Source: an uncultured Alphaproteobacteria bacterium (GTDB lineage: Bacteria; Pseudomonadota; Alphaproteobacteria; Rhizobiales; Methyloligellaceae). From it: a DNA stretch of 64,000 bases. The stretch covers positions 264,128-328,127 of the forward strand of contig CAVSYE010000001.1 of assembly GCA_963732205.1 (NCBI GenBank). Direction: 5' to 3'. The first letter of the stretch is position 1, and each line of letters starts with the position of its first letter. Of the stretch, positions 43,258 through 63,216 are shown piece by piece. Under the pieces are notes generated by a model. That model saw only the letters and a list, made by a program, of their open reading frames with translations, was not told the origin of the DNA and did not search any database. A program made the translations under genes and the position numbers.

Positions 43258-43430
43258 TGTCCTTCCCGAAAATTCCATCTGGCCTGGATTCGCATCGTAA
43301 GGCAGAATCATCGCATCATTGCGAGCGATGTTTGCGCTCCTGTACGCGCTCGGAATGTTCGTCGCCGACCTGTTCAAGTCGCGGTGGCGGCTTGAGGCCG
43401 AGGACTTGCTTCTCCGCCATCGTCCATGGC
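43258..43430 (+). mobile_element. Left end and transposase N-terminus of an rve-type IS
   Basis: TGTCCTTCCCGAAAAT; DLFKSRWRLEAEDLLLRH. Confidence 0.7.
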
Positions 43431-43540: not shown

Positions 43541-44530
43541 TCAAAGATCGATGACTATCCGCCCTCGCGTTTTTCCGGCAAGGATCTCAGTCGCCAGAAC
43601 AGGCACGTGCTCGAGCCTTGCCCGTGACGTCATGTTGCTGAGCTTCGCGAAATCGAGATCGTTGGCTAGACAACTCCACGCCTCTTCACGCTTCTCTCGC
43701 GGGGTTACAACCGAGTTCACTCCCGCAAGCGTCACGTCGCGGAGGATGAAGGGCATGACGGTAGCGGGCAAGTCGGAGCCCTGCGCCAAGCCGCAGGCAG
43801 CCACTGCGCCATCATATTTGACTTGCGACAGCACGTTGGCCAACGTGCTGCTACCGAGCGAGTCGATTGCGCCGGCCCAGCGTTCCTTGCCTAATGGGCT
43901 TCCAACTCCAGAGAGATCGCGAGAGTCGATGATTTCATCGGCCCCAAGTCCATGTAGGTAGTCGGCCTCCCGCTCGGCGCGGCGGGAGGAAGCGACGACG
44001 CGATAGCCGAGCTTGTCGAGGAGCGCGATCGCAACTGAGCCCACCCCGCCAGCAGCGCCGGTCACCAGCACATCGCCTCTGTCTGGAGAGATCCCCTCTT
44101 TTTCTAGCGCCAGCACGCAAAGCATGGCGGTGTACCCGGCAGTACCAATCGCCATGGCTTGGGCTGTCGAAATATTATCGGGAAGCTTGATCAGCCAGTC
44201 ACCCTTGAGACAAGCCAGCTCCGCATAGCCGCCGTGATGCGTCTCGCCTAAACCAAAACCGTTTGCCACGACGCGATCTCCGGACTGGAAGCGAGGATCC
44301 TCCGAACGCGACACCTTGCCGGCCAAATCAATGCCGGGGATGAGAGGGAATTTGCGGATGATGGGCGCTTTGCCGGTTATGGCGAGGCCATCCTTGTAGT
44401 TCACCGTCGAGTGCTCGACGGCTACGGTGACATTGCCTTCCATAAGATCCGCATCTGTTAGCTCGGTGACCTCGACGCTTTGCCGGTCGCCCTTTTTGGT
44501 CACGAGTAAGGCCCGGAACTTTTCGGTCAC
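43541..44530 (-). CDS. YhdH/AcuI-like MDR oxidoreductase
   Basis: STVNYKD, GTAGYTAML, GAAGGVG, PFILR; GGAG RBS before GTG. Confidence 0.92.
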   Translation of the reverse strand: MTEKFRALLVTKKGDRQSVEVTELTDADLMEGNVTVAVEHSTVNYKDGLAITGKAPIIRKFPLIPGIDLAGKVSRSEDPRFQSGDRVVANGFGLGETHHGGYAELACLKGDWLIKLPDNISTAQAMAIGTAGYTAMLCVLALEKEGISPDRGDVLVTGAAGGVGSVAIALLDKLGYRVVASSRRAEREADYLHGLGADEIIDSRDLSGVGSPLGKERWAGAIDSLGSSTLANVLSQVKYDGAVAACGLAQGSDLPATVMPFILRDVTLAGVNSVVTPREKREEAWSCLANDLDFAKLSNMTSRARLEHVPVLATEILAGKTRGRIVIDL

Positions 44531-44878
44531 ATCATTCTCCGTGGGGTGTCCCGGTCGCGGGCGGCCGCGGCAACCCATAGATAGAGAGAGGTATGCCCTC
44601 TCCAGCGTAGTCGACGAGTTCGGCAAGAACGGGGGCATCGCCAATGGTCGCAGGGCGGAACATAGGATTGCTGAGAGGATGGACCAGCTTGCACTGTCAT
44701 GGGTTGAAAGGCATGAGGGTTAAGGCATGAAGCAAATAAAAAGGAGACGCATAAACCTGCACCGCAAGCGCCACCCAGCAAAGCTGCGGAAGCGCGAACT
44801 AGCTTGCCGAGTGCGGCGCTCGCGGCGAGGGGAGGGGCAATGATGGGAGTTCCCCCAACCGACCGTCGAGGCTTGAGG

Positions 44879-45232: not shown

Positions 45233-46996
45233 TCAGCTGCCTGTGAAGGTCAGCAGCTTGCGCGCCCTGGCCGGGTCGCTCAGCTTCCGGAGCGCCTTCG
45301 CTTCGATCTGGCGGATGCGTTCGCGGGTCACGCCGAACATCTTACCTACCTGTTCGAGCGTGTGGTCGGGCATTCCGATCCCGAACCGCATCCGCAAAAT
45401 GCGCTCCTCGCGGGGCGTCAGCTCAGCCAGGACCTCCGCCACGCATTCTCGGAGCGCGGCAGCCTCCGCCACGGTGTGAGGATTGATAGCGTCGGGCGCC
45501 TCGATGAGATCGGCCAAGGTGGCATCGCCATCCTCGCCGATTGGAACATCAAGGGAAGTGGGGTCTTGCACCAGCGACAGCACCTGCTCGACTTGAGCCT
45601 TTGCAATGCCCGAGCGTGCAGCAATCTCGTCGGTCCCTGGCTCGTGCCCGTGCTGCTGATGAAACTTGCTCCGCTCACGATGAACCTTCCTTGCGGTTTG
45701 CGCCATGCGCACGGGGACGCGAATCATGCGGCCCTGGTCGGCCATAGCGCTCGTGATCGACTGGCGGATCCACCAAACGGCATAGGTCGAGAGCTTGACG
45801 CCACGTCGATAGTTGTACTTTTCGACCGCACGCATGAGACCGAGATTGCCTTCCTGGATAAGATCGGAAAGCTCCAGGGAGCTGTGATCTCGATACTTCT
45901 TGGCGATGGCAACCACGAGACGGAGATGCGCACGCACCATCTCCTGGCGCAGCCGCTTCAGCTCTCGCCCGGCCTGGTAGACCTCCGTAAGGACAAGACG
46001 CAGCTCAGAGAGCGGCAAACCCAGCCGCCGGGCTATAGCCTCGAAGTCTGCACGAAGCTCGGCCGGACGCTGCGCATGCGTTTTCATAAGAGCGCACCAG
46101 CCTCGGTCGGATAGAGATGCAGCCTCGCCGATCCAGTCCGGATCGAGCTCGCGCCCAAAGAGTTGGTCGATCACCTCAGCGCGCGCGATGCCGCAGCCTT
46201 CGGCCAGCCGCAACAGCTCTCGCTCCGTCCGGCATAGACTCCGGGCCTCGGTGTCGACCTCTGCCACAAGATCCGAAATCCGGTCCTGCTGCAGATGCAG
46301 GCCCGCAATATCCGCCATGGCGCGCGACAGAAGCTCGTCAAGCCGCCTGCGTTCACGCCGTGAAAGCTCCTTCCCACGGGCGAGCGCCGCGATGCGCTTC
46401 CGAGCAAGACCGGCGATCTCGGCACTCAGGGCGGCGATGAGTTCAAGCCGTGGGATGAAGTCCACCGCTTCGGCGCTTACGTCGAGGCTACCATCATCGC
46501 CAAGGAGATCGTCTTCGGCCGCTTCGCGCTCATCCGACGGAACGGCATCAAGCAAATAACTCAAGCGAAGGCGACCCGCGCGCAATTCGTCTCCCCAGGC
46601 ACCAACTCGCTCGACGATCAGCGGAATTCGGCATAGGCAGATCAGCAAGGCCCGCTGGGCCTCATCGATCCGCTTGGCGAGCGCGAGCTCCTCGCCGCGG
46701 GACAGCAACTCGGCATTGTCGAGGTTACGGAAGTACGCATCGAGAGGGTCACGCGAGCGCGGCGCATCGTCGACCTGATTGGCGATGCTGCCGGTGGCGG
46801 CTGCGCCATCCCGGCGCATGGCCACGCCGGGTTCGAGCCTGTCCGAGTTAAGCTCGTGACTTGAATCGATCCCAGCTACTTTGGCGCGCCAGAAAGCGGC
46901 GACGTCGGCTGGACGCTCAACGGCGGAGCCGTCGTACTCCACTTCAAATTGGTGGTGCCTCATCGAATCCATTTGGTCAAATTCCTTCGAGCGCAC
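45233..46996 (-). CDS. RpoD-like sigma-70 paralogue with non-conserved region, no recognisable region 1.1
   Basis: DPLDAYF; [14 protein letters not shown]; [10 protein letters not shown]; [16 protein letters not shown]. Confidence 0.9.
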
Positions 46997-47107
46997 CCGG
47001 CATAGCGGCCGGGCAAGAGCGGTAACGCCCTGGCCAGGAAGAGCCAGAGTTGCTTAGCGCCGCTTTGCCGATTGAGATCTTCGGGGATAGTGGCACGAGC
47101 GAACTAA

Positions 47108-47160
47108 GTTTCGAAACAAAATTATACCCGTCCGATCGGTTGTCAACTTGATTTCGAAAC
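47108..47160. promoter_or_regulatory. Two putative MarR operators
   Basis: GTTTCGAAAC (47108-47117) and ATTTCGAAAC (47151-47160) between the divergent sigma and marR genes. Confidence 0.55.
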
Positions 47161-47186
47161 ACTATCATGTTTTCAAAGAGGCAATC

Positions 47187-47780
47187 ATGTCAGCGCGCGA
47201 AACGGCGGAACGGCTGCTGCTGCTGGGACGGCTCGTGCAAGCCGAGGGCTATCACGGCGACCTCTGCCCCGCCCAATGGATGGCGCTGCGCTTCTTCGCC
47301 CGCGCCAACTCTTTTTCCCGCACCCCATCCGCATTCGCGGAATTTCAAGCGACCACCCGTGGCACCGCGACACAGACCATCAAGGCGCTTGAGACAGGTG
47401 GGTACTTGGTCCGACAGCGATCGGAGGCGGACGGGCGAAGCGTCAGTCTGCGACTGACGGACAAAGGTCACGAAGCGGTTGCGCGCGATCCGTTCGAAGT
47501 TCTGGTGTGCGCCGTGGACTCGCTCGATGCGGAAGAGCAAACCGCGATGCACCACGCCCTACACCAAGTGCTGACCACGGTAGCTGCGAGCGGGCCGCAT
47601 CGGCACTTCGGTGTTTGCCAGGACTGCGCGCACCTCGGTGAGGAACCCTCCTGCAGCTCAACGAGCGCGACCCGGCCGGCCCTCGAATGCCTACTGTTCG
47701 GCGTTGCGATCGAGCCAGAGGACGCTGGTCTTCTCTGCGTCCATTTTCAGCCAACGAACGAACGAGCACCGCGATGGTAG
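47187..47780 (+). CDS. MarR-family regulator with Cys-rich C-terminal extension
   Basis: Winged helix (DGRSVSLRLT); CQDC...C...C...C tail. Confidence 0.85.
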   Translation: MSARETAERLLLLGRLVQAEGYHGDLCPAQWMALRFFARANSFSRTPSAFAEFQATTRGTATQTIKALETGGYLVRQRSEADGRSVSLRLTDKGHEAVARDPFEVLVCAVDSLDAEEQTAMHHALHQVLTTVAASGPHRHFGVCQDCAHLGEEPSCSSTSATRPALECLLFGVAIEPEDAGLLCVHFQPTNERAPRW

Positions 47781-47826
47781 ACACCATGAATGAGTGCACC
47801 CCTGCGATCTGCTGTAAGGCGCTCAA

Positions 47827-47887
47827 ATGCCCTACGCCGTCAACAAAAGCTGCATCAGTGCAAGTACATGGACTGTGTCGAGGTGTG
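47827..47887 (+). pseudogene. Ferredoxin (FdxA-like) 5' remnant
   Basis: MPYAVNKSCI / CKYMDCVEV matches the start of fdxA at 63093 with an indel. Confidence 0.7.
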
Positions 47888-47940
47888 GAGGCCAGGGCTG
47901 CCGACGTGGTGTCTCCTGCCGCAGATGAGCTGCAAGACCC

Positions 47941-48381
47941 ATGACGCTCGAGAACATCCTTGCGGACTTCCAGCTCCTGGATGACTGGGAGGACCGCTAT
48001 CGCTATGTGATCGAGCTCGGCCGCGCTCTGCCTCGGCTGCCGGAAGCGGCGCGAACGGCGGCGAACAAAGTTCGCGGCTGCGCCAGTCAGGTCTGGCTCG
48101 CGACCGAGGTCAATGGCGCCACCGCCGGGGCCGCGCCGCGCCTCAACTTCAAGGGCGACAGTGACGCCCATATCGTGCGGGGACTGATCGCCATCCTCTT
48201 TGCGATCTACTCGGGCCGGCGCGCGGACGAGATCGTTCGGATCGATGCGGAGGGCGTGTTCCGGCGTCTCGGGTTGGCCGAGCACTTGACGCCGCAGCGC
48301 TCGAACGGATTCGCCTCGATGGTCGAGCGGATCTGCACCGACGCCCGCGGCGTCATGAGCAGAGAGGCGACGGCAGCCTGA
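47941..48381 (+). CDS. sufE: Fe-S metabolism protein SufE
   Basis: WEDRYRYVIELG; VRGCASQVWL; DSDAHIVRGL. Confidence 0.93.
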   Translation: MTLENILADFQLLDDWEDRYRYVIELGRALPRLPEAARTAANKVRGCASQVWLATEVNGATAGAAPRLNFKGDSDAHIVRGLIAILFAIYSGRRADEIVRIDAEGVFRRLGLAEHLTPQRSNGFASMVERICTDARGVMSREATAA

Positions 48382-48443
48382 GCCGCGCACGCACCCACAA
48401 ACAACGATCCATTGAGTCTGTTCAATCTTGTGAGGAAGGCGTG

Positions 48444-48866
48444 ATGACATTCATAGCAGAGAACCTCGCCGTAACGACGAACCCCGATGGGAACCGCCTT
48501 CAGACGATCGCTTCACGGCTTCGGAAGCACCTGCAAAAGATCGCCGGGCGGCGTGTTCCGACCACCTACCAAGAGCTTGCAAAGGCACTGGCGCTGACGC
48601 CCCCGCACAGGATTCATCAGGTGAGCGAGGCGTTGGAGCATCTCATGGCGGAGGATGCGGCGACCGATCGCCCGTTCATTGCCGCCATCGCCATCAGCAA
48701 GGCGCGGGGCGGCCTACCGGCCCCAGGGTTCTTTGATTACGCCCGGCGGCTCGGACGCTGTGCCGGCGATGCGGCAGGACTCGAGGCGTGCGCCTTCCAT
48801 GCGCGGGAGTTAAACGCCGCAGTCACGTTCTGGGCGGCAACGGCAACCAATGGCAAGAGCGGGTAA
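48444..48866 (+). CDS. Hypothetical protein, possibly winged-helix-like
   Basis: TTYQELAKAL; GLPAPGFF; in operon context. Confidence 0.65.
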   Translation: MTFIAENLAVTTNPDGNRLQTIASRLRKHLQKIAGRRVPTTYQELAKALALTPPHRIHQVSEALEHLMAEDAATDRPFIAAIAISKARGGLPAPGFFDYARRLGRCAGDAAGLEACAFHARELNAAVTFWAATATNGKSG

Positions 48867-48872
48867 ACAGGC

Positions 48873-50258
48873 ATGGTCCTTCGCTCGGATCAGGCGTCGG
48901 ATTCGACCCGGTTGAGGCCCGTGTCGCGCGGCAGCGTGGGCGGCTGGCCGCACGTGGTCATTGTTGGCGCCGGGTTCGGCGGCCTGACCGCCGCGAAAGG
49001 GCTCGCCAAGGCAGCCGTCGAGGTCACCCTGATCGATCGCGAGAACCACCACCTGTTTCAGCCGCTGCTCTACCAAGTAGCCACCGCGGGTCTATCCCCG
49101 GCGGAGATCGCTTGGCCGATCCGGGGTCTGGTCCGGGGGCAACGCAACACCCGGGTGCTGCTCGGCGAGGTCACCGGCGTGGAGCGCGGGCGGCACGTTG
49201 TGACTATGGGCGACCAGGAGGTTCCTTATGACTTTCTGGTGCTCGCGACAGGCGCGACCCATGCCTACTTCGGCAACGACGGCTGGGCCGAGCTTGCACC
49301 CGGCCTGAAGTCCATCGACGATGCCACAGAGATTCGGCGCCGCCTCCTCATGGCGTTCGAGCGGGCCGAGATGGAGAACGATCCGGAAGAGCGCGAACGG
49401 CTCCTCACCATTGTCATCGTCGGCGGTGGCCCGACTGGCGTGGAGATGGCCGGCGCTATTGCGGAACTGACCCGCAGGGCGCTCGCGGCCGACTTCCGGA
49501 CCATCGATCCCAGGCACACGCGGGTGCTGCTGATCGAGGCCGGGCCAAGGCTACTCCCGACCTTCCCCGAAGACCTATCCCGCTATGCCGAGCGTGCACT
49601 CCGGAGCTTGGGCGTCGAAGTGTGGCTTGGGCGTGCGATCACAGGCTGTGACGCGGCCGGTGTAACGCTGCATGAGGAGCGCCTTCCCGCGGGCACGGTA
49701 ATCTGGGCGGCCGGGGTGGCCGCATCGCCGGCAGCCGCGTGGCTGGGGGTCGAGGCGGACCGCGCGGGACGGGTGAAGGTCGGCGCACGACTGACGCTGC
49801 CAGGATCCGACGACGTCTTCGTGATCGGCGATACCGCCCTCGTGCTTGACGCGAACGGTGAACCGCTCCCGGGATTGGCTCCGGTCGCAAAGCAAGAAGG
49901 CGCCTACGTGGCCGAGGTGATCAAGGCGCGCCTTGCCGGCAAGACCCACGTGCCGCCCTTTGGTTATCGGGAGCGGGGCAAGCTCGCCACGATCGGCCGA
50001 CGGGCGGCAATCATCGCGTTCGCAGGCCTGCGGCTAAAGGGGTGGCTTGCCTGGTGGATCTGGGGCATCGCCCACATCTACTTCCTGATCAGCCTTCGCA
50101 ATCGGCTGATCGTGGCGACGCAATGGCTCTGGTCCTACGTCACTTTTGAGCGCGGCGCGCGGCTGATCACCGGCATGCATCTGAACCCCAAGCGTGACGG
50201 GCACGGTCGTCGCGGCGACGACAGCGCTCGCCCACTCCCACGCCGAAGAGCCGCCTAG
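48873..50258 (+). CDS. ndh: Type II NADH dehydrogenase-like FAD oxidoreductase
   Basis: GAGFGG; HLFQPLLYQVAT; GGGPTGVE; APVAKQEG. Confidence 0.9.
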   Translation: MVLRSDQASDSTRLRPVSRGSVGGWPHVVIVGAGFGGLTAAKGLAKAAVEVTLIDRENHHLFQPLLYQVATAGLSPAEIAWPIRGLVRGQRNTRVLLGEVTGVERGRHVVTMGDQEVPYDFLVLATGATHAYFGNDGWAELAPGLKSIDDATEIRRRLLMAFERAEMENDPEERERLLTIVIVGGGPTGVEMAGAIAELTRRALAADFRTIDPRHTRVLLIEAGPRLLPTFPEDLSRYAERALRSLGVEVWLGRAITGCDAAGVTLHEERLPAGTVIWAAGVAASPAAAWLGVEADRAGRVKVGARLTLPGSDDVFVIGDTALVLDANGEPLPGLAPVAKQEGAYVAEVIKARLAGKTHVPPFGYRERGKLATIGRRAAIIAFAGLRLKGWLAWWIWGIAHIYFLISLRNRLIVATQWLWSYVTFERGARLITGMHLNPKRDGHGRRGDDSARPLPRRRAA

Positions 50259-50281
50259 TCGAGATGTCGAGGAACCGAGGT

Positions 50282-51538
50282 ATGCAGACGACCAACCCGC
50301 ACCACGATCAGCAGCACGCGCCTGGCGCGTCGTCCCAAGCATCTGCCGGTCCAGAGAAGCTACCTGGGATCCGCCACATCATCGCGGTGGGCAGCGGCAA
50401 AGGCGGCGTGGGCAAGTCCACGGTCAGCGTGAATCTCGCGTTCGCGCTCCAACAGATCGGGGGCAGGATCGGACTCCTGGATGCTGACATCCTCGGCCCG
50501 AGCATCCCTGGCATGCTGGGGCTTCCGGTCGGTCAGCCGCCCACGACCACACCGGACGGCAAGATCGTCCCCGTCGATCGCCACAGCCTAAAAGTGATGT
50601 CGATGGGCATGCTGACCGGGGACGACGCGCCGGCGGTTCTGCGCGGGCCGATGGTGGGCAAATATCTTCACATGTTCATCCGGGGGGTGCAGTGGGGACA
50701 TCTGGACTACTTGATTCTCGACCTCCCGCCCGGAACAGGCGACACCCAGCTGACGCTGGCGCAGAGCTACCCTTTGTCGGGTGCGATCATCGTGACGACG
50801 CCGCAGGACGTGAGCCTGAAGATCGCCCGCCGTGGTTTGCGAATGTTCGAGACCGTGCATGTCCCCATCCTCGGCATCATTGAGAACATGAGCACCTTCA
50901 CTTGTCCTCACTGCGGGAAGGGCACAGATATCTTCCGTCGCGGCGGCGGCGAGCAGATGAGCCGGCAACTCGAAGTCCCGTTTCTAGGCGCCATCCCACT
51001 CGACGCCGATGTCGTCACCTGCGGTGACGAGGGTCGCCCCATCGTGGTCGACAGGCCCAAGTCGGTCGCCGCCCGGGCGTACGCTGCCATCGCCGCGGCG
51101 CTCGCGGAGCAACTCCATGCCGCTCCGGCCACTGTGCTGAAGCCCTTTGTATGGACATGGGACAGCAATGAGGGCGCCCCGGCCTGGATGGAGGACGCCG
51201 TTTTGCCCTCGGGCTCTCGAACCACCGCGATTGGCTGGCGCCGGCGCGACGCTCGAACGCTGTCCGTGCTCTGGGAGAACGGCGACCGAAACGACTTTGA
51301 TGTCCGGGACCTCCGATTGGCGTGCCGATGCGCCCTCTGTGTCGAAGAGATGAGCGGGCGCCCTCTCCTGGATCCGAAGAGCGTGCGACCGGACGTGACC
51401 CCCCGCACCGTCACGAGCGTGGGCAACTACGCCATCACCATCAGCTGGAGCGACGGTCACAGCACGGGGATCTACTCGTTCGAGCACCTGCGGGCCTTCG
51501 GTGAACGCGGCGCAGCCAGGGTTGTGGAAGATGTCTGA
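50282..51538 (+). CDS. mrp: Mrp/ApbC P-loop Fe-S carrier fused to a C-terminal DUF971-like domain
   Basis: GKGGVGKST; DLPPGTGD; CPHC; C-terminal CRCALC...GNYAI...WSDGHSTGIY. Confidence 0.9.
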   Translation: MQTTNPHHDQQHAPGASSQASAGPEKLPGIRHIIAVGSGKGGVGKSTVSVNLAFALQQIGGRIGLLDADILGPSIPGMLGLPVGQPPTTTPDGKIVPVDRHSLKVMSMGMLTGDDAPAVLRGPMVGKYLHMFIRGVQWGHLDYLILDLPPGTGDTQLTLAQSYPLSGAIIVTTPQDVSLKIARRGLRMFETVHVPILGIIENMSTFTCPHCGKGTDIFRRGGGEQMSRQLEVPFLGAIPLDADVVTCGDEGRPIVVDRPKSVAARAYAAIAAALAEQLHAAPATVLKPFVWTWDSNEGAPAWMEDAVLPSGSRTTAIGWRRRDARTLSVLWENGDRNDFDVRDLRLACRCALCVEEMSGRPLLDPKSVRPDVTPRTVTSVGNYAITISWSDGHSTGIYSFEHLRAFGERGAARVVEDV

Positions 51539-52157
51539 GGTCCTACCCGTCGACCCGACGACCACCATCCGCGCCGAGACATCACAGGCCGACCCCGACA
51601 CGTGCAAGTTCACGGTCAGCCGGACGGTGCATCCGGGTGGCCCGTTCTTTTTCGACAGCAAGGATCGGGCATCCGGCTCGCCCCTCGTCGAGCAACTCTT
51701 CGCCCTGCCGGGCGTTTCCCATGTGCTCGTGGCTGAGACCGTGGTGACGGTTGGAAAGGACCCGAGTGTCGCGTGGTCGGCGCTGAAATCGGCAATCGGC
51801 GGGGCCATCCGGACGCAGTTGCTCACAGGTGTGCCCGCCATCTTCGAGGCTTCTCACAACGCAGGCACGCGGGGCCGGACAGACGGCGAGATTCGTGCGT
51901 CCGTTCAGGAACTCCTCGACCGCGAAGTGAATCGCTCCATCGCAAGCCATGGCGGGAAGATCTCAATCATCGACGTTCGGCACGGCAACCTCTTCATTGC
52001 GATGAGCGGAGGCTGCCAGGGTTGCGCTGCCTCTTCCGTAACCTTGCGACAGGGGTTCGAGGTCATGGTGCGCCGGGTGGCACCGGAGATTGTCGACATC
52101 GTGGACACGACGAACCACGCGGCCGGCGAGAAACCCTTCTACCAGCGCACGGTCTAG
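51531..52157 (+). CDS. Nfu/NifU-type Fe-S carrier
   Basis: Nfu N-terminal scaffold-like domain; SHGG...GGCQGC. Confidence 0.88.
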   Translation: MSEVLPVDPTTTIRAETSQADPDTCKFTVSRTVHPGGPFFFDSKDRASGSPLVEQLFALPGVSHVLVAETVVTVGKDPSVAWSALKSAIGGAIRTQLLTGVPAIFEASHNAGTRGRTDGEIRASVQELLDREVNRSIASHGGKISIIDVRHGNLFIAMSGGCQGCAASSVTLRQGFEVMVRRVAPEIVDIVDTTNHAAGEKPFYQRTV

Positions 52158-52500
52158 GAGACGTCGATGGCGAGGCGAGACATTGGGTCAAGAGTAAGAC
52201 CAATTCCGAGATGCACGATCGGACGACGACGGACGTGATCGGAAAAGCCGCTGGCCGGGAGAGGGGCGAGCGCGCGTTTCGGTACTGCCAACATGACGTG
52301 GGTCATGCCCCTGGGACTCTGCGCTTCGCGGCTGCTGCCCTTGGCCGGAAACTCTTCATCCTCGACCGTGTAGACGCCATGTCGCAGCTTCTCGGACTCA
52401 ACCGCAACGGCGACTACACCGGCGCGGAGCGACATGGCACTGAACGATAGATATTCGTGGGCATTGTACGGGCGAATAGTTTGATAAGGGAGAGGCTCAC

Positions 52501-52860
52501 ATGACCGAAACTCTTGCCCAGAAAACATGCACGCCCTGCCGTGGTGGCATCCCACCACTCACTCATGAGGAAGCCGAACGCTTCCGTGCGCAGGCCTCGG
52601 ACTGGGAACTCCGCGACGACGCTCATCGTATCGAGCGGACCTTCCGGTTCCGCAACTTTCGCGAAGCAGGGGCTTTTGTCCAAGAGATCGGTGAACTCGC
52701 TGAGGCCGAAGGCCATCATCCGGACATCAGCTTCGGCTGGGGCTATGCAACGGTCGGCTTGCAGACGAAGAAAATAAAAGGACTGCACGAGAATGACTTC
52801 ATCATGGCGACTAAGATCAACCAGATTTTCGACCGCTCGACCAAGAGCCCGAGCTTGTAA
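52501..52860 (+). CDS. phhB: Pterin-4-alpha-carbinolamine dehydratase
   Basis: EGHHPD; GLHENDFIMATKI; N-terminal CTPC. Confidence 0.9.
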   Translation: MTETLAQKTCTPCRGGIPPLTHEEAERFRAQASDWELRDDAHRIERTFRFRNFREAGAFVQEIGELAEAEGHHPDISFGWGYATVGLQTKKIKGLHENDFIMATKINQIFDRSTKSPSL

Positions 52861-53271
52861 TCTACTTCGTTAATCGGCGTGCCGGCCAGGCACCGGTCGA
52901 CCGCGAAGAGAAGGGCGGTTATTGGAAGGTCGGCGCGTCACTGACGCGTTGTTCAATGATAGCTTTAAACTTCGTCGAACCGCGCGACGCCGAGCAATAC
53001 ACGCCTGTCACCATGCGAATATGGTGCCGTGCCTGAGCTCAAGGTGCGTGCGTACGTACAACGTCTGCGGGCGAGGGTGACAATTCAGCGCGCTAAGATT
53101 GTAATACCCTCAGTCAATGTCCATATATTTGTCACTGGCGCGGCGCCCGAGGCGCCGTACCAACGACGTGCGGCTCTTTCCCGAAATTCTCAGCAGTCGA
53201 ACCTAGAGCCTCCGGATTCGCGAGCCTGCGAAACAGCGCATGCGTGCGCTGTCACCCCGAGAGGCACTATC

Positions 53272-53754
53272 ATGGCCGCTACCTTCAATTCCCAAGTTGC
53301 CGCCGACCAAGCCCGCAACGCCTACCGCAACGTGACCGCCCAACTCGGTCTCTTAGCTCTCGACACCGCCATTCCCGAGGCCTTAGGAGCCGTTGCCGAA
53401 AAGACCGTGGGCCAGACGCGCGAGGCCTATGACCGCTCCAAGGATGCTCTCGAAGCATCGATAGCGACTTTTGAAAGATCCTTCGATGCGGCGGGGTGGG
53501 GCGCAGCAGCGTTCAACCGTAAAATCATCGACATCGCCCGCCGCAACCTGAATTCCAGCTTCGACCTGGCGACGAGCTTGGCGGGCGCTAGGAACCTCGC
53601 CGAGATCGTGGAATTGCAGGCGGCCCATTGGCGCAAGCAGTTCAGAGCATTGACGGCTCAAGCCGAGGAAGTCCCCGCTTCGACCAAGGTGGTGGCCGAC
53701 GCGGGCGAACCGCTCAAGGAGTACCGCAATGACCATTCCCCATTACGTCAATGA
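53272..53754 (+). CDS. Phasin family protein
   Basis: Ala-rich helical; FNRKIIDIARRNLNSSFDLA...EIVELQ. Confidence 0.8.
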   Translation: MAATFNSQVAADQARNAYRNVTAQLGLLALDTAIPEALGAVAEKTVGQTREAYDRSKDALEASIATFERSFDAAGWGAAAFNRKIIDIARRNLNSSFDLATSLAGARNLAEIVELQAAHWRKQFRALTAQAEEVPASTKVVADAGEPLKEYRNDHSPLRQ

Positions 53755-54819: not shown

Positions 54820-54874
54820 CATACGCCGAAGACCCGCGAGGTCGCCATTGGCCAGCTCATTATGCACGGCCGAG

Positions 54875-55270
54875 AGCACCTGGTCATTTCCCTGGATCGA
54901 GACGCCAGCCTACCTGGTGCGCGACAATGACCGCGCCTATGGACACGTCTTCACGTCTCGGGTGAGGGCGATGGGTATCCGCGATCGACCAATCTCTCCT
55001 GGGTTGCCGTGGCAGCATGGCTATGCTGAGCGTCTGATCGGCACATTGCGCCACGAGTGCCTGGATCAAGTGGTAATCTTCGGCGAGATGCACTTGCGGC
55101 GAATTCTTTCCGTTTATGCGGCGTATTACAATCAAGCGTGCACGCACTTGGCATTACAAAAGGATGCGCCCTTGCATCGAGCAGTCCAACGATCTGGCGC
55201 CATTGTCGCGATTCCAATCCTAGCTGGACTGCACCACCAATACGTCCGGATATGATTTTCGGAAAGGACA
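54875..55270 (+). mobile_element. 3' part (integrase core) and right end of an rve-type IS
   Basis: YLVRDND, YAERLIGT.RHECLD, YYN...HLAL.KDAP; end ATTTTCGGAAAGGACA. Confidence 0.85.
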
Positions 55271-55279
55271 GGAGGCAGA

Positions 55280-57324: not shown

Positions 57325-57440
57325 ACCAGGCGCAAGGTAGGAAGAGGGCATGCCCACCTAAGCCGGCGCGGGTTATTCCATTCCACCTGTTGACTGACCG
57401 TCGGTTGGATGCGCTGGCCGCCCTTGTGACAGCGTTCGCG

Positions 57441-58172
57441 CTACAATCCCCAGCCGGTGACGGCGAGGACCTGGCCGGTAATGCCGGCGGCGGCTGGTGA
57501 GGCAAGGAAGAGCACGGTCTCGGCGATGTCTTCGCGCTTGGTCCAACGCTTCAGATCTTTCGGTTTCATCGCGGCAATGTTGGATGCCGTGTCTACCAGC
57601 CCTGGCGCAATTGCGTTCACGCGGATACCGAGATCTCTTCCCTCGAGCGCAAGCGTGCGGGTAAGTGCCTCAATGCCTGCCTTGGCGCAGTTATAGGCGA
57701 CCATGTTGGCCTGAGGCTGGCCAGCCCGTGCGAAGTTGATGATGACACCGGTCCCGGCCGCTTGCAGATGCGGGAAAGCTGCGCGCGAGGTCAAAAACGC
57801 ACTCAACAGGTTGTTGTCGACCTCCGAACGCCAATCATCGAGACTGTGCTCGACCGCACTCTTATAGCGGCTGAGGCCTCCTGCCAGGTTCACCAGAACG
57901 TCGATCCGGCCGTATTCACTTACGGTGCCGTCGATCAGCCGCTGGACCTGGCCCTCATCGGTCAAACACCCAACCATGGCGAACACACGGGCGCCTGCGT
58001 CTCGCAGCTCTTTGGCCCGGGCTTCAACGTTGCTTTGTTTGCGCGCACAAATCGCCAGCTGAGCGCCGTTTTCTGCCAGCGCCTTGGCGACGGCCTGGCC
58101 AACCTGTCCATCGCCGCTCACGCCCGTTATGATGGCCACTTTGCCTACAAGATTGGTCTGCATGTCATTCAA
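57441..58172 (-). CDS. SDR family oxidoreductase
   Basis: AIITGV.GDGQVG; YNCAK. Confidence 0.88.
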   Translation of the reverse strand: MNDMQTNLVGKVAIITGVSGDGQVGQAVAKALAENGAQLAICARKQSNVEARAKELRDAGARVFAMVGCLTDEGQVQRLIDGTVSEYGRIDVLVNLAGGLSRYKSAVEHSLDDWRSEVDNNLLSAFLTSRAAFPHLQAAGTGVIINFARAGQPQANMVAYNCAKAGIEALTRTLALEGRDLGIRVNAIAPGLVDTASNIAAMKPKDLKRWTKREDIAETVLFLASPAAAGITGQVLAVTGWGL

Positions 58173-58239
58173 TCCGGTGCTTACTTATTATAGCGCAAAG
58201 AGCTGACGTTTCGAGCATCAGCCCAGCGTGCCGGAGTAA

Positions 58240-59178
58240 ATGATGACCACGGTCGTGGTGTTCGGCGGTGCGGGTTTCCTCGGTCGGCGATTGGTGCACC
58301 GCCTAGCCACCGAGGGCATGACTGTACGCGTGGCTGTGCGGCATCCGGATCCGGCGCGGATTGAGCTGCGATGGATGGGTTTCGACCGGGTCACGGTCGT
58401 CCCCGCCGATGTGCGCGATCAAGCCTCTGTCGCCGCCGCCATTGCGGGAGCTAACGCCGTAGTCAATACGGTCTCGGCCTATGTCGAGAAGGGTGGCGTG
58501 ACCTTCGAGGCCGTGCACGTGCAAGGGGCCGAGACCGTAGCGCGGGAGGCAGTCGCGGCAGCCGTCGCCCGCCTCGTACTTGTCTCCGGCATCGGCGCGG
58601 ATGCCGATTCAGGGTCCTCTTACATCCGTGTTCGAGGACGCGGCGAACAGGTGGTCCGGCAGGAGTTTCCAGGAGCTACGATTGTTCGCCCAGGCGCCAT
58701 GTTCGGTCCAGGCGACGCCCTGTTCGGCACGCTCGCCGACCTCGCCCGGCTGCTTCCGGTGCTGCCGCTGATTGGCGGCGGCCACACCCGACTGCAGCCA
58801 GTCTTTGTGGAAGACGTGGCGGAGGCTATCGCCAGCATACTCACCGACCCCCAAACCGTCGGCCGAACCTACGAGCTTGCCGGCCCCGGAGTGTACACGC
58901 TGCGCGAGCTGGTCAGGATGACGCTGCACCTCACGAGGAAACGGCGACTGCTCATACCAGTGCCCTTTGCGCTAGCCGAGATCCAGGCGCGGCTGTTCGA
59001 GCTCCTGCCAAACCCACCGCTCACCACCGGCCAAGTCGATCTTCTCAAGGCGGACAACGTCGCGAGCGGTGCCCTGCCGGGTCTCCGGGAGCTCAATATC
59101 CAACCGAAAACGGTCGAGGAGGTAGTGCCGACCTATATTGGCACTCGCGCACTAGGATCGGTGTTCAGACATCGATGA
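58240..59178 (+). CDS. Complex I NDUFA9-like NAD-dependent epimerase/dehydratase family protein
   Basis: GGAGFLG; LQPVFVEDVA; YELAGP. Confidence 0.88.
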   Translation: MMTTVVVFGGAGFLGRRLVHRLATEGMTVRVAVRHPDPARIELRWMGFDRVTVVPADVRDQASVAAAIAGANAVVNTVSAYVEKGGVTFEAVHVQGAETVAREAVAAAVARLVLVSGIGADADSGSSYIRVRGRGEQVVRQEFPGATIVRPGAMFGPGDALFGTLADLARLLPVLPLIGGGHTRLQPVFVEDVAEAIASILTDPQTVGRTYELAGPGVYTLRELVRMTLHLTRKRRLLIPVPFALAEIQARLFELLPNPPLTTGQVDLLKADNVASGALPGLRELNIQPKTVEEVVPTYIGTRALGSVFRHR

Positions 59179-60153
59179 CCACCCGTCCTCGCGTTTTTCC
59201 CGCGAGGACTTTGGCCGCCAAAGCCGGCACGTCGTCGAGTCTCGCACGTGACGTCATGCTGTTGAGCTTTCCGAGATCGAGGTCCGATGCCAAACGACCC
59301 CAGGCCTCTTCGCGCTTCTCGCGCGGGGTCAAGACCGAGTTCACACCCGCAAGCGTCACGTCGCGTAGGATGAAGGGGAGGACGGTCGCGGGCAGGTCCG
59401 ACCCTTGTGCCAAGCCGCAAGCCGCCACCGCGCCGTCGTATTTGATCTGCGAGAGCACGTTGGCGAGGGTTCGACTGCCGAGCGAGTCCACCGCGCCCGC
59501 CCAGCGCTCCTTGGCCAATGGGACCCCAGCTCCGGAAAGTTCGCGAGCATTGATGATTTCATCCGCGCCGAGTCCTTGCAAGTAGTCGCCTTCCTGCTCA
59601 GCCCGGCGGGAGGAGGCGACAACGCGATAACCGAGCTTGTCGAGGAGCGCGATCGCGATCGACCCCACCCCAGCGGCAGCACCGGTCACGAGCACATCGC
59701 CCCTGTCCGGCGTGATGCCTGCCGTTTCCAAGGCCAGCACGGAAAGCATCGCGGTGTAGCCGGCGGTGCCAATCGCCATGGCTTCGGCAGTCGAAATGTT
59801 CTCAGGGAGCCGGATAAGCCAGTCGCTCTTGACGCGGGCCCGCTCGGCGTAACCGCCGTGGTGCACCTCGCCCAGACCATAGCCGTTCAGCACGACGCGA
59901 TCGCCACTTGGAAGTGCGGGTCCTCCGAGCGCAGCACCTTTCCGGCCAAGTCGATGCCGGGGATAAGCCGGAATTTGCGGATGATCGGCGCCTTGCCCGT
60001 AATCGCGAGGCCGTCCTTATAGTTCACCGTTGAGTGCTCGACCGCTACGGTGACATCACCCGCCATGAGATCAGCATCAGTCAGCTCGGTGACCGCCACG
60101 TTTTGCCGGTTGCCCTCTTTGGTCACCAGCAACGCCCGGAACTTGTCAGCCAT
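59165..60153 (-). pseudogene. Second YhdH/AcuI-like MDR oxidoreductase, -1 frameshift at ~59905
   Basis: Collinear with 43541-44530; one A missing at TTC CAA (A)GT. Confidence 0.88.
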
Positions 60154-60371
60154 GTCATCTTTCCTCAGCGCGGCGCCCGACCACTTAGGAGACAGTCGTA
60201 TCCGGTGATTACGTGTCAACGACTGACCCGACGCGGACGCTTGGAGGGTGGCGCGCTCGCCGAGTGTCGCGCGTTTACCCATCCACGCACAAACCTGCCC
60301 CCGTCGGCCTCGGCCGGGGCCCGTCCTGCTGTTCGCCGCTCAGCTAGGTTGATGTCGGAGGATCCTCGAAT

Positions 60372-62757: not shown

Positions 62758-63093
62758 TCAATCACCCGTGCCAGGGTTTGGCGATAACAGGTTGATCTTG
62801 TCGGGCTTGCCCTCCCACTCCTTGGCATCTGGCGGCGGCTCACGTTTTACGGTGATGTTGGGCCAGATCTGAGCATATTTGGTATTGATCTCCAGCCACT
62901 TCTCGAGTCCGGGCTCGGTGTCCGGCTTGATTGCATCAACCGGGCATTCCGGCTCGCAAACACCGCAATCGATGCATTCGTCCGGGTGGATGACGAGCAT
63001 GTTCTCGCCTTCGTAGAAGCAGTCGACGGGACATACCTCGACACAGTCCATGTACTTACATTTGATGCAGCTCTCATTGACGATGTACGTCAC
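62758..63093 (-). CDS. fdxA: 7Fe-type ferredoxin
   Basis: [18 protein letters not shown]; [12 protein letters not shown]; GGAGG RBS. Confidence 0.95.
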
Positions 63094-63115
63094 GCGAGCC
63101 TCCTTCCAGGAAGAC

Positions 63116-63216
63116 TGGCCGTCGACCTCCGGATCATCGAATGGTGCACCCTATTAACGATTTCTAGAAGGATGGCCGTCGACCTCCGGATCATCGAATG
63201 GTGCACCCCATTAACG
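63116..63216. repeat. 44-bp tandem duplication, period 57
   Basis: TGGCCGTCGACCTCCGGATCATCGAATGGTGCACCCYATTAACG at 63116 and 63173. Confidence 0.9.

What the first reader, a model, noticed from the sequence alone, without database searches (positions are those of the whole stretch)
47187..52860. Accessory Fe-S delivery/repair module: SufE, unknown, NDH-2, Mrp-DUF971, Nfu, PCD
Co-oriented, tightly spaced genes (Mrp and Nfu overlap) encode a sulfur-transfer protein and two late [4Fe-4S] carriers, with no scaffold (SufBCD/IscU) or cysteine desulfurase in the window. Mrp fused to a C-terminal DUF971 (CRCALC) echoes the plastid carrier HCF101, here without an N-terminal DUF59 domain. Co-location with an Fe-S-independent NADH dehydrogenase, a ferredoxin remnant and a CxxC-bearing PCD suggests a stress kit that bypasses and repairs Fe-S-dependent respiration. 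I do not know this combination as a named system.
Basis: partly seen in the sequence, partly recalled or inferred. Interest (0 to 1): 0.65.

Follow-up and report, generated by a model that had tools for sequence, protein, structure and literature searches.

The report
Mobile iron-sulfur cluster back-up operon
This is a horizontally acquired operon of spare iron-sulfur-cluster delivery genes plus an iron-sulfur-free NADH dehydrogenase, under its own cysteine-rich repressor; its core gene pair (Mrp-DUF971 with Nfu) turns up nearly unchanged in at least a dozen bacterial phyla, so it is a widely traded toolkit rather than a one-off.

Summary
Window 47187-52860 carries, co-oriented and tightly packed: a MarR with a four-cysteine tail, SufE, a 141-aa protein with no family, NDH-2, Mrp/ApbC fused to DUF971 (no DUF59), a two-domain Nfu overlapping it by 8 nt, and a PCD. 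It also holds fragments of fdxA and sagB.

Every gene has a diverged housekeeping paralogue elsewhere in the 3.7-Mb genome. None of about 58 same-genus genomes has the Mrp-DUF971/Nfu pair.

That pair is the invariant unit. It occurs at 70-98% protein identity in Alpha-, Beta- and Gammaproteobacteria, Gemmatimonadota, Actinomycetota, Eremiobacterota, Acidobacteriota, Planctomycetota and others. Its G+C stays near 60-65% even in 43% G+C hosts.

The exact six-gene order is not conserved, but the gene content recurs. In relatives the same Cys4-MarR lies between an iscA-sufBCDS(U) operon and unk141-NDH-2, often followed by LipA, FolE, Mrp-DUF971, Nfu, SelO and SagB. The window therefore holds the carrier-and-bypass arm of a mobile SUF-centred gene pool, assembled from two modules joined at 50268/50269.

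Induction by stress and Fe-S sensing by the MarR tail are inferred, not shown. I rate it a new variant of a known kind, of moderate to high interest.

The parts
45233..46996 (-). Island-borne RpoD-like sigma-70 gene, transcribed divergently from marR
   Evidence: Sigma70 r1.2, ner, r2, r3 and r4 domains; RpoD model E 5e-135 but below its cut-off. The primary rpoD is on contig C4. Copies at 91-92% occur patchily in same-genus genomes. Other alphaproteobacterial loci have an RpoH-like sigma at this position.
47108..47168 (+). Control region: palindrome GTTTCGAAAC (47108-47117); -35 TTGTCA (47140-47145); second operator ATTTCGAAAC (47151-47160) inside the 17-nt spacer; -10 TATCAT (47163-47168)
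   Evidence: It is the only 10/12 promoter match in 46900-53300. The same layout lies upstream of Cys4-MarR genes in L002, L007, L009 and L057, with degenerate forms in beta and gamma loci. The operator pair is unique in the 3.7-Mb genome.
47187..47780 (+). MarR-family regulator with a C-terminal four-cysteine tail (C144, C147, C168, C184)
   Evidence: MarR_2 at 1e-9. The four Cys are invariant in 22 sequences down to 39% identity. At least 2684 relatives exist in metagenomes. No solved MarR covers the tail.
47827..47887 (+). fdxA remnant: about the first 20 codons, frameshifted and then truncated
   Evidence: Homology to MarR-FdxA loci L002, L007 and L009 runs to 47887. It is 93% complementary to the window's intact fdxA at 63032-63060. 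Sequence read.
47941..48381 (+). SufE-type sulfur acceptor, a second copy
   Evidence: PF02657 at 7e-46. SufE equivalog 124 bits, below the 160 cut-off. Cys47 sits in RGCASQVW. The housekeeping copy at C1:737620 is 63.5% identical.
48441..48866 (+). Conserved 141-aa protein of an unnamed family (unk141)
   Evidence: No Pfam or NCBIfam hit. At least 837 homologues. It has 25 invariant residues and no invariant Cys. The AF2 model is all-helical at pLDDT 75, with no PDB fold match. In proteobacterial loci Cys4-MarR is directly upstream in 23/51 and NDH-2 directly downstream in 11/44.
48873..50258 (+). Type II NADH dehydrogenase (NDH-2), a second copy
   Evidence: Pyr_redox_2 at 2e-49 and NDH2_C at 3e-7. 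Two dinucleotide-binding motifs, GAGFGG and GGGPTG, are visible in the sequence. The chromosomal paralogue is 32% identical.
50264..51538 (+). Mrp/ApbC P-loop Fe-S carrier fused to a C-terminal DUF971 (GBBH-like_N). The likely true start is ATG 50282, giving 418 aa.
   Evidence: PF10609 at 1e-95 plus PF06155 at 5e-23, with no DUF59. C214-P-H-C217, C354/C356/C359 and H399 are invariant in 75 sequences. PDB relatives are 8zkc and 3kb1 for the carrier, and 3luu and 2l6n for DUF971. The housekeeping Mrp is 53% identical.
51531..52157 (+). Two-domain Nfu (Nfu_N plus NifU C-domain with GGCxGC), translationally coupled to mrp
   Evidence: Pfam result. Resembles both domains of human NFU1. The 8-nt overlap ATGTCTGA is shown. 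The gene lies next to Mrp-DUF971 in 78 of 82 loci. The CxxC motif is present in 65 of 69 sequences.
52265..52477 (+). Internal fragment of a SagB-like dehydrogenase gene (a remnant)
   Evidence: tblastn matches residues 91-159 of a 479-aa SagB-like protein at 75% identity, E 4e-26. L054 has the full gene between nfu and pcd.
52501..52860 (+). Pterin-4a-carbinolamine dehydratase family protein, a second copy
   Evidence: PF01329 at 3.5e-29. The equivalog scores 111 bits, below the 133 cut-off. It follows MarR-FdxA or Nfu in L003, L007, L054 and L192.
43258..43421 (.). Left piece of an rve-type IS that flanks the segment
   Evidence: In same-genus genome G065 this piece and the 54873-55275 piece lie about 540 nt apart within a single ~1.1-kb element.
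54873..55275 (.). Right piece of the same IS (rve_3 integrase core)
   Evidence: rve_3 at 1.5e-11. Adjacency in G065 shown. Further copies occur in the genome.

Best explanation
The stretch is a single operon under MarR control: marR(Cys4), fdxA fragment, sufE, unk141, ndh2, mrp-DUF971, nfu, sagB fragment, pcd. It sits on an IS-flanked, horizontally acquired segment of an uncultured Hyphomicrobiales genome.

It is the carrier-and-bypass arm of a widespread mobile gene pool for iron-sulfur homeostasis. In relatives the other arm is an iscA-sufBCDS(U) operon transcribed divergently from the same MarR.

Proposed working, all inferred:
1. The MarR dimer sits on two GTTTCGAAAC-type operators, one of them inside the promoter spacer.
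2. When Fe-S status falls (oxidants, NO, cobalt or copper, or iron shortage), the four-cysteine tail loses or changes its cofactor and the operon is derepressed.
3. Extra SufE raises sulfur flow from the host's own SufS.
4. Mrp-DUF971 and Nfu, made in fixed proportion by translational coupling, carry [4Fe-4S] clusters to labile clients. Candidate clients are the kinds whose genes travel with the pair in relatives: LipA, MoaA, aconitase, FdxA, NuoB and SdhB.
5. NDH-2 keeps NADH oxidation going without the cluster-rich complex I.
6. The roles of unk141 and PCD are unknown.

Shown here: domain content, accessory status, horizontal spread, recurrent gene content, and conserved promoter/operator and cysteine positions. 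Inferred: cofactor sensing, inducing conditions and the client range.
For: Domains.

Each gene is a diverged second copy (Mrp 53%, SufE 63.5%, NDH-2 32%, Nfu 30%, PCD 32%), and the suf operon lies on another contig.

The pair is absent from 36 plus 22 same-genus genomes.

Horizontal spread of the pair:
- 75 Mrp-DUF971 sequences from at least 12 phyla form a tight clade, far from the housekeeping Mrp.
- Cross-phylum pairs are 95-98% identical in both proteins.
- Nucleotide identity is 89-90% between Alphaproteobacteria, Gemmatimonadota and Planctomycetota.
- The pair's G+C is 58-59% inside Legionellaceae and Coxiellaceae flanks of 43%.

Recurrent neighbours: a gene of the Fe-S pool lies within 8 kb in 44 of 61 loci. 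SufR or the Cys4-MarR is directly beside the pair in 19.

The same content appears in other orders: Tardiphaga isolates, and Burkholderiales L236 and L216 and Lysobacterales L207.

The MarR lies between the iscA-suf operon and unk141-NDH-2 in many loci.

Promoter, operators and four invariant Cys are conserved.

Published support:
- Plasmid-borne Fe-S modules occur in glacier Polaromonas (PMC6015842).

The module junction at 50268/50269 is defined against L192.
Against:
- The six-gene order is not conserved.
- Two gene fragments show that the locus has been decaying or rearranging.
- In 17 of 61 loci the pair stands among unrelated genes.
- The MarR tail folded with low confidence (pLDDT 33-59). 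A metal or cluster site therefore rests on conservation alone, and a zinc site or thiol switch fits equally well.
- Many loci come from metagenome bins, where mobile DNA is often mis-binned, so some cross-phylum assignments may be wrong. Megabase contigs (L006, L014, L018, L047) do support the main claim.
- SufE and PCD score below NCBIfam equivalog cut-offs.
Confidence: 0.6

Rival explanations
1. Chance mosaic. IS- and integrase-driven rearrangements have thrown unrelated cargo genes together, and the locus is decaying with no joint function.
For: - IS pieces lie on both sides, and duplicated, rearranged acuI copies are present.
- There are fdxA and sagB fragments.
- Close relatives show different joins.
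Against: - The same gene set recurs in Alpha-, Beta- and Gammaproteobacteria in different orders and orientations.
- All seven full genes are intact, and spacing is 5-6 nt or overlapping.
- There is one promoter with conserved operators.
- The neighbours are thematically uniform.
Confidence: 0.1
2. A dedicated maturation set for one client rather than a general stress kit. The client could be lipoyl synthase or MoaA (radical-SAM enzymes whose clusters are consumed or labile) or the Fe-S subunits of complexes I and II. On this reading, expression follows demand for that client.
For: - LipA lies within 8 kb of the pair in 10 of 61 loci and MoaA in 6.
- Stand-alone NuoB-like and SdhB-like genes lie in the alphaproteobacterial islands.
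- It is established that E. coli NfuA restores the LipA auxiliary cluster and that mitochondrial Ind1 (an Mrp relative) serves complex I. Both statements are from my own knowledge, not from a tool.
Against: - The window itself carries no client gene in the operon; only an fdxA fragment remains.
- The partner clients differ from locus to locus.
- The adjacent regulators are SufR or a Cys-rich MarR, which suggests sensing of general Fe-S status.
Confidence: 0.15
3. A metal or oxidant tolerance determinant. On this reading the MarR tail is a zinc site or a thiol/disulfide switch that senses Co, Cu, Zn or peroxide directly, not an Fe-S sensor. The gene products would be the same, but the trigger and sensing chemistry differ.
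For: - DUF971 mutants are sensitive to Co(II) and paraquat.
- The Polaromonas plasmids that carry the module also carry metal-resistance genes.
- Thiol-based and zinc-binding MarR proteins such as OhrR and AdcR are known and appear among the PDB matches of the DNA-binding core.
- The DUF971 CxCxxC+H site matches the zinc site of the gamma-butyrobetaine hydroxylase N-domain family (and my own knowledge).
Against: - In other phyla the place of this MarR is taken by SufR (with its family match). By established knowledge SufR senses Fe-S status through a cluster.
- Four invariant Cys spaced CxxC-x20-C-x15-C fit a cluster at least as well as a thiol switch.
Confidence: 0.15

Closest known systems
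Plasmid-borne [Fe-S] assembly modules of glacier Polaromonas (pE3SP1, pE5SP1, pE10SP1; Ciok et al. 2018, PMC6015842)
   Same: - The same Mrp-DUF971/Nfu pair, at 74% nucleotide identity.
- The same pool of partners: suf, BolA, Grx, NifU, FolE, FdxA, LipA, SelO, SagB and MoaA.
- Second copies carried on mobile DNA and proposed to help against oxidative damage.
   Different: - The window has no suf genes. It carries SufE, which those plasmids lack, together with NDH-2, unk141 and the Cys4-MarR in one operon.
- In a text search for ApbC and Mrp the paper mentions neither. I found no treatment there of the Cys4-MarR or of spread across phyla.
HCF101 (plastid, mitochondrial or cytosolic Mrp-family carrier) and bacterial HCF101-like proteins (Pyrih et al. 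2021, PMC7980591)
   Same: A ParA-type Mrp core with CxxC, followed by DUF971 carrying the bacterial-type motif C-R-C-A-L-C.
   Different: - The N-terminal DUF59/FSCA domain that defines the HCF101 architecture is absent.
- The gene is always coupled to an nfu gene.
- No phylogenetic test against eukaryotic HCF101 was made.
ApbC/Mrp with free-standing DUF971, BolA and YggX in Pseudomonas and Shewanella (Price et al., bioRxiv 10.1101/072470)
   Same: Mrp and DUF971 are linked functionally by cofitness and by cobalt and paraquat phenotypes. Here the two are fused.
   Different: In that study the two are separate housekeeping genes. Here they form a fused, mobile second copy. The window's genome also keeps a separate DUF59-Mrp and a free DUF971.
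SufR-controlled suf operons (cyanobacteria, actinobacteria)
   Same: In 12 of 61 loci a SufR homologue sits directly beside the pair or its suf operon. The logic matches: a Cys-rich repressor beside Fe-S assembly genes.
   Different: The window and other proteobacterial loci use a MarR-fold protein with a different four-Cys tail. No SufR gene was found in the window.
Human/mitochondrial NFU1 and alphaproteobacterial Nfu
   Same: Two-domain build: Nfu_N plus a NifU C-domain with CxxC.
   Different: Only 30% identical to the genome's own Nfu. It travels as a translationally coupled pair with Mrp-DUF971.

Membership tests
Mrp/ApbC/NBP35 Fe-S carrier ATPases | ParA-type P-loop domain with a deviant Walker A (GKGGVGKS) | tested here: met
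   PF10609 at 320 bits against a cut-off of 27.1. The Walker A box is nearly invariant in 75 sequences.
Mrp/ApbC/NBP35 Fe-S carrier ATPases | Conserved CxxC that bridges a [4Fe-4S] cluster at the dimer interface | tested here: met
   C214-P-H-C217 is invariant. Actual cluster binding cannot be tested here.
HCF101 architecture | N-terminal DUF59/FSCA domain | tested here: not met
   Only about 35 residues with no domain precede the Walker A box; there is no DUF59 hit.
HCF101 architecture | C-terminal DUF971 with CxCxxC | tested here: met
   PF06155 at 82 bits. C354, C356, C359 and H399 are invariant.
NFU1-type Nfu carriers | Nfu_N domain plus NifU C-domain with a CxxC motif | tested here: met
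   PF08712 and PF01106 both exceed their cut-offs. GGCQGC is present, and the motif occurs in 65 of 69 relatives.
SufE/CsdE sulfur acceptors | SufE fold with the persulfide-accepting Cys | tested here: met
   PF02657 at 155 bits. Cys47 lies in RGCASQVW. The NCBIfam SufE equivalog scores 124, below its 160 cut-off.
SufE/CsdE sulfur acceptors | A partner group-II cysteine desulfurase encoded nearby | tested here: not met
   No desulfurase lies in the window. The SufS gene is on contig C3.
Type II NADH dehydrogenase | Two Rossmann dinucleotide-binding motifs plus the NDH-2 C-terminal membrane-anchoring domain | tested here: met
   Pyr_redox_2 at 169 bits and NDH2_C at 30.9 bits against a 27.7 cut-off. 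GAGFGG and GGGPTG are visible in the sequence.
Pterin-4a-carbinolamine dehydratase | Pterin_4a fold with the HHP catalytic motif | tested here: met
   PF01329 at 101 bits. EAEGHHP is present. All NCBIfam equivalog models score below their cut-offs.
MarR-family repressors | Winged-helix MarR DNA-binding core | tested here: met
   PF12802 at 38.5 bits against a cut-off of 27. The AF2 core has pLDDT 74-94. PDB MarR matches cover positions 11-138.
Fe-S-sensing regulators (working like SufR, IscR or NsrR) | A cluster ligated by conserved cysteines whose state controls DNA binding | not testable with these tools
   Four Cys are invariant. The tail is modelled at low confidence, and there is no solved relative.
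SUF Fe-S assembly operon | SufBCD scaffold and SufS encoded in the same locus | tested here: not met
   Absent from the window. Present beside the pair in about a quarter of related loci.

The most novel reading that the evidence does not exclude
A self-contained Fe-S maintenance island moves between bacterial phyla in aerobic soils and cold habitats. Its parts would be:
- a previously unrecognised MarR-fold Fe-S (or redox) sensor;
- an unnamed 140-aa partner protein;
- the coupled Mrp-DUF971/Nfu pair as a portable late-acting [4Fe-4S] delivery unit.

On this reading, tolerance of the Fe-S proteome to oxidants or metals would be a horizontally traded trait, much as metal resistance is. The fusion would also give DUF971 a testable role as the Mrp helper domain.
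Probability: 0.35. Interest if true: 0.75.

Novelty: new variant of a known kind. Interest (0 to 1): 0.6.

Why it matters
Fe-S cluster assembly is normally treated as core housekeeping. This locus and its relatives suggest instead that a compact set of late carriers, spare Fe-S client proteins and Fe-S-free bypass enzymes circulates as accessory, mobile DNA across phyla.

If that is confirmed, it would provide:
- a candidate new class of Fe-S or redox-sensing regulator, a MarR with a four-Cys tail, with more than 2,600 relatives in metagenomes;
- a genetic handle on the unknown function of DUF971, a domain that plant and apicomplexan HCF101 also carry;
- an unnamed but highly conserved 140-aa family to study;
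- cultured carriers in which to test all of this, namely Tardiphaga sp. vice352 and Polaromonas sp. E3S with pE3SP1.

Tried and rejected
- **AlphaFold model of the MarR, to see whether the four Cys converge.** The tail came out at pLDDT 33-59, so the result is uninformative.
- **AlphaFold plus Foldseek for unk141.** The model is acceptable (pLDDT 75), but no PDB match beat E = 3.7. Only weak local resemblances to winged-helix domains appeared, so no function is assigned.
- **Contexts of distant unk141 homologues in Rhodobacteraceae.** They are unrelated and varied, and gave no clue.
- **Rfam and tRNA scans of the region.** Nothing was found. The conserved 168-nt stretch between nfu and pcd proved to be a sagB fragment, not an RNA.
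- **The idea that cross-phylum similarity reflects strong purifying selection only.** Rejected on three grounds: 89-90% nucleotide identity, the G+C mismatch with hosts, and absence from about 58 same-genus genomes.
- **A link to atmospheric H2/CO oxidisers, which the host list resembles.** No hydrogenase or CO-dehydrogenase genes lay beside the pair in the 82 loci, so I dropped it.
- **Literature searches.** The terms were DUF971/Mrp/Nfu and iron-sulfur/island/rpoH/MarR. They found no description of this operon, the Cys4-MarR or unk141.
- **Megablast against plasmids.** It gave only three partial matches.

Full report
**What is in the sequence**

Between 47187 and 52860 the + strand carries seven intact genes.
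- A MarR-family regulator at 47187-47780.
- SufE at 47941-48381.
- A 141-aa protein without any family at 48441-48866.
- A type II NADH dehydrogenase at 48873-50258.
- An Mrp/ApbC P-loop carrier with a C-terminal GBBH-like_N domain (the former DUF971) and no DUF59, at 50264-51538. The probable true start is ATG 50282, which gives the 418 aa seen in relatives.
- A two-domain Nfu at 51531-52157.
- A pterin-4a-carbinolamine dehydratase family protein at 52501-52860.

The genes are tightly packed. The gaps before ndh2 and mrp are 6 and 5 nt, and the mrp stop overlaps the nfu start as ATGTCTGA.

Two gene fragments lie between the intact genes.
- The first ~20 codons of fdxA, frameshifted, at 47827-47887.
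- An internal piece of a SagB-like dehydrogenase gene at 52265-52477 (75% identity, E 4e-26).

Across 46900-53300 only one good sigma-70-type promoter is found: TTGTCA-17-TATCAT at 47140-47168. No convincing terminator was found, so a single transcription unit starting at marR is likely. No Rfam family or tRNA gene lies in the region.

**The genes are accessory and recently acquired**

The genome is 3.73 Mb in 7 contigs and about 98% complete. It belongs to an uncultured Hyphomicrobiales lineage. Housekeeping counterparts of every operon gene lie elsewhere in it:
- a DUF59-Mrp, 53% identical;
- SufE, 63.5%;
- NDH-2, 32%;
- Nfu, 30%;
- PCD, 32%;
- a primary rpoD;
- one suf operon on contig C3.

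None of 36 plus 22 same-genus genomes has the mrp-DUF971/nfu pair. Only the ATPase core of their housekeeping mrp matches, at 64-72% nucleotide identity.

The segment lies between two pieces of one rve-type IS, at 43258-43421 and 54873-55275. In genome G065 the two pieces lie about 540 nt apart within a single ~1.1-kb element.

**The invariant unit is the Mrp-DUF971/Nfu pair, and it crosses phyla**

A scan of one genome per species returned 80 loci. The pair is adjacent, and usually overlapping, in 78 of 82 loci.

Seventy-five Mrp-DUF971 sequences form a tight clade with terminal branches of mostly 0.01-0.3 substitutions per site. A long branch separates this clade from the window's own housekeeping Mrp. 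The clade includes Alpha-, Beta- and Gammaproteobacteria, Gemmatimonadota, Actinomycetota, Eremiobacterota, Acidobacteriota, Planctomycetota, Myxococcota, Nitrospirota, Armatimonadota and Dormibacterota.

Four observations argue for transfer rather than slow evolution.
- Cross-phylum pairs are 95-98% identical in both proteins. One example is a 3.65-Mb Gemmatimonadales contig against a Beijerinckiaceae contig.
- Nucleotide identity between phyla reaches 89-90%.
- The pair keeps 58-65% G+C even in Legionellaceae and Coxiellaceae flanks of 43%.
- The pair is absent from the window's own genus.

The caveat is that many loci come from metagenome bins, and some assignments may be wrong. Megabase contigs and a complete Polaromonas chromosome carry the pair too.

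The larger protein collection holds thousands of further copies. One source names the architecture 'MRP-like and DUF971 domain-containing protein'.

**Features of the pair**

In Mrp-DUF971 the Walker A box is nearly invariant. The bridging C214-P-H-C217 motif is invariant, and so are C354, C356, C359 and H399 in the DUF971 part. Solved relatives are Fe-S carrier proteins for the core and two uncharacterised DUF971 proteins for the tail.

The Nfu resembles both domains of human NFU1 and keeps GGCxGC.

Two published results bear on the fusion.
- Bacterial HCF101-like proteins carry the same C-x-C-A-x-C motif (PMC7980591).

The fusion seen here joins two partners already linked by genetics. It does not have the HCF101 architecture, because DUF59 is absent.

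**The neighbours form a recurrent pool, not a fixed order**

A gene of one thematic pool lies within 8 kb of the pair in 44 of 61 loci with enough flank. The pool holds:
- sufB, C, D, S, U and T;
- IscA, BolA and monothiol Grx;
- FdxA and a Rieske ferredoxin;
- LipA, MoaA, FolE and aconitase;
- NAD-dependent formate dehydrogenase and NDH-2;
- a NuoB-like protein;
- SelO, a SagB-like dehydrogenase and VIT;
- extra sigma factors.

In 17 loci the pair stands alone. A regulator sits directly beside the pair in 19 loci: SufR in 12 and the Cys4-MarR in 7.

The exact order in the window is not conserved. The closest relatives show the following arrangements.

| Locus | Identity to window | Arrangement |
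|---|---|---|
| L003 | 97% | SufE-Mrp-Nfu-PCD |
| L005 | 95% | unk141-NDH2-Mrp |
| L054 | 98% over mrp-nfu | (truncated Mrp)-Nfu-SagB-PCD, with a full sagB |
| L192 and same-genus G063 | 90-96% | sigma, then divergently MarR-SufE-unk141-NDH2, with no pair |

Against L192 the window is collinear up to 50268 and again from 52435. The mrp-nfu-sagB-fragment block (50269-52434) was therefore joined onto a pre-existing sigma/MarR/SufE/unk141/NDH-2/PCD module. In G063 that module abuts a tyrosine integrase.

**The left half is also a recurrent module and ties the whole to SUF**

The unnamed 141-aa protein has at least 837 homologues. It has 25 invariant residues and no invariant cysteine. Its model is helical, with no significant fold match.

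I tabulated 80 loci that encode it. In proteobacterial loci at 55% identity or more, the Cys4-MarR is directly upstream in 23 of 51, and NDH-2 is directly downstream in 11 of 44.

A common layout is sufU-sufS-sufD-sufC-sufB-iscA-iscA on one strand and MarR-unk141-NDH2 on the other. Here '<->' marks divergent transcription, and genes left of it are listed promoter-proximal first. Three loci are the most telling.
- L236: MarR-unk141-NDH2-FolE-LipA-Mrp-Nfu-SelO.
- L216: Mrp-Nfu-SelO-SagB-VIT <-> MarR-unk141-NDH2.
- Cultured Tardiphaga isolates: MarR-FdxA-SufE-unk140-NDH2-LipA-flavodoxin <-> RpoH-like-Rieske-Mrp-Nfu.

That argues for a functional link.

It also shows that in relatives these genes are satellites of a suf operon. 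In 9 of 10 genomes checked, that suf operon is the only one present. Between Myxococcota, Planctomycetota and Actinomycetota loci its SufB is 85-88% identical and its SufS 75-80% identical. It is plasmid-borne in Polaromonas.

It therefore looks like part of the same mobile pool rather than an ordinary vertically inherited operon. The Polaromonas plasmid modules were described in 2018. In a text search for ApbC and Mrp that paper mentions neither (PMC6015842).

**The regulator**

The MarR carries four cysteines (C144, C147, C168, C184) that are invariant in 22 sequences down to 39% identity. No solved MarR covers this tail.

Two palindromic sites lie upstream: GTTTCGAAAC at 47108-47117 and ATTTCGAAAC at 47151-47160. 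The second sits in the promoter spacer. The layout is conserved in other loci and occurs nowhere else in this genome.

This confirms an earlier first-reader note on the same gene. Whether the tail binds an Fe-S cluster, binds zinc, or acts as a thiol switch cannot be decided here. The structure model of the tail has low confidence.

**Most likely working, and its limits**

I read the stretch as a repressor-controlled back-up set.
- Derepression when Fe-S status falls.
- SufE to raise sulfur flow from the host's SufS. The alphaproteobacterial versions carry SufE where the beta versions carry SufS and SufU. That this is an adaptation to the host is my inference.
- Mrp-DUF971 and Nfu to deliver [4Fe-4S] clusters to labile clients.
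- NDH-2 to bypass complex I.

Flavodoxin, metal-free formate dehydrogenase, and spare NuoB, SdhB, FdxA, aconitase, LipA and MoaA in relatives fit the same theme.

Domain content, accessory status, horizontal spread, recurrent content and the conserved control elements are shown. Inducing conditions, the sensing chemistry, the client range, and the roles of unk141 and PCD are inferred or unknown.

**Verdict**

The system is a new variant of known kinds: SUF-associated carriers and plasmid Fe-S modules.

Three elements appear undescribed in the searched literature: the cross-phylum mobile Mrp-DUF971/Nfu pair, the Cys4-MarR, and the unk141 family.

Noticed in passing
window 43541-44644 and 59165-60160: There are two acuI (acrylyl-CoA reductase) copies 15.6 kb apart at 81-83% nucleotide identity, and the second is split by a frameshift. 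In relative L192 a single copy, with the SDR and NAD-binding genes of 57403-60180, lies directly beside the sigma gene. The window has therefore undergone a duplication or inversion around the island.
   Followed up: partly
window 45233-46996: An RpoD-like sigma gene occupies the divergent position that an RpoH-like sigma holds in Bradyrhizobium, Tardiphaga and Beijerinckiaceae loci. Giant RpoD-like sigmas of 940-1040 aa also lie beside the pair in two Actinomycetota loci (L012, L028).
   Followed up: partly
L016, L028, L040, L075: Whole suf operons next to the pair share 85-88% SufB and 75-80% SufS identity between Myxococcota, Planctomycetota and Actinomycetota bins, and each is the only suf operon in its genome. 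Either a complete SUF system moves between phyla or these contigs are mis-binned.
   Followed up: partly
L090 and L091 (5-10 kb), L092: Alphaproteobacterial islands carry HSP20-SufE-unk140-NDH2 followed by a stand-alone SdhB-like Fe-S subunit gene. They are flanked by integrase, resolvase and IS1595 genes. A stand-alone NuoB-like gene lies in L002, L007 and L068.
   Followed up: no
window 62758-63093 and 63110-63216: An intact fdxA has a 100% identical twin at C1:473740 and a 94% copy at C1:9480; the genome holds five fdxA-like genes. Two 50-nt direct repeats (94% identical) lie just upstream of the window copy.
   Followed up: no
window 52501-52860: The island PCDs share the motif LQTKKIKGLHENDF. 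The position where, as I recall, the published PCD signature has His or Trp is Lys here. All NCBIfam equivalog models score below their cut-offs. Catalytic competence is uncertain.
   Followed up: no
L001 9890-13452 and many other loci: A SelO (protein adenylyltransferase) gene and a ~590-aa SagB-like dehydrogenase gene repeatedly follow nfu as a pair. Their link to Fe-S maintenance is unexplained.
   Followed up: no
L240-L260 (Rhodobacteraceae isolates): Distant unk141 homologues (46-54% identical) occur singly in unrelated contexts in Sulfitobacter, Phaeobacter, Paracoccus and others. The family is therefore not confined to the island.
   Followed up: partly
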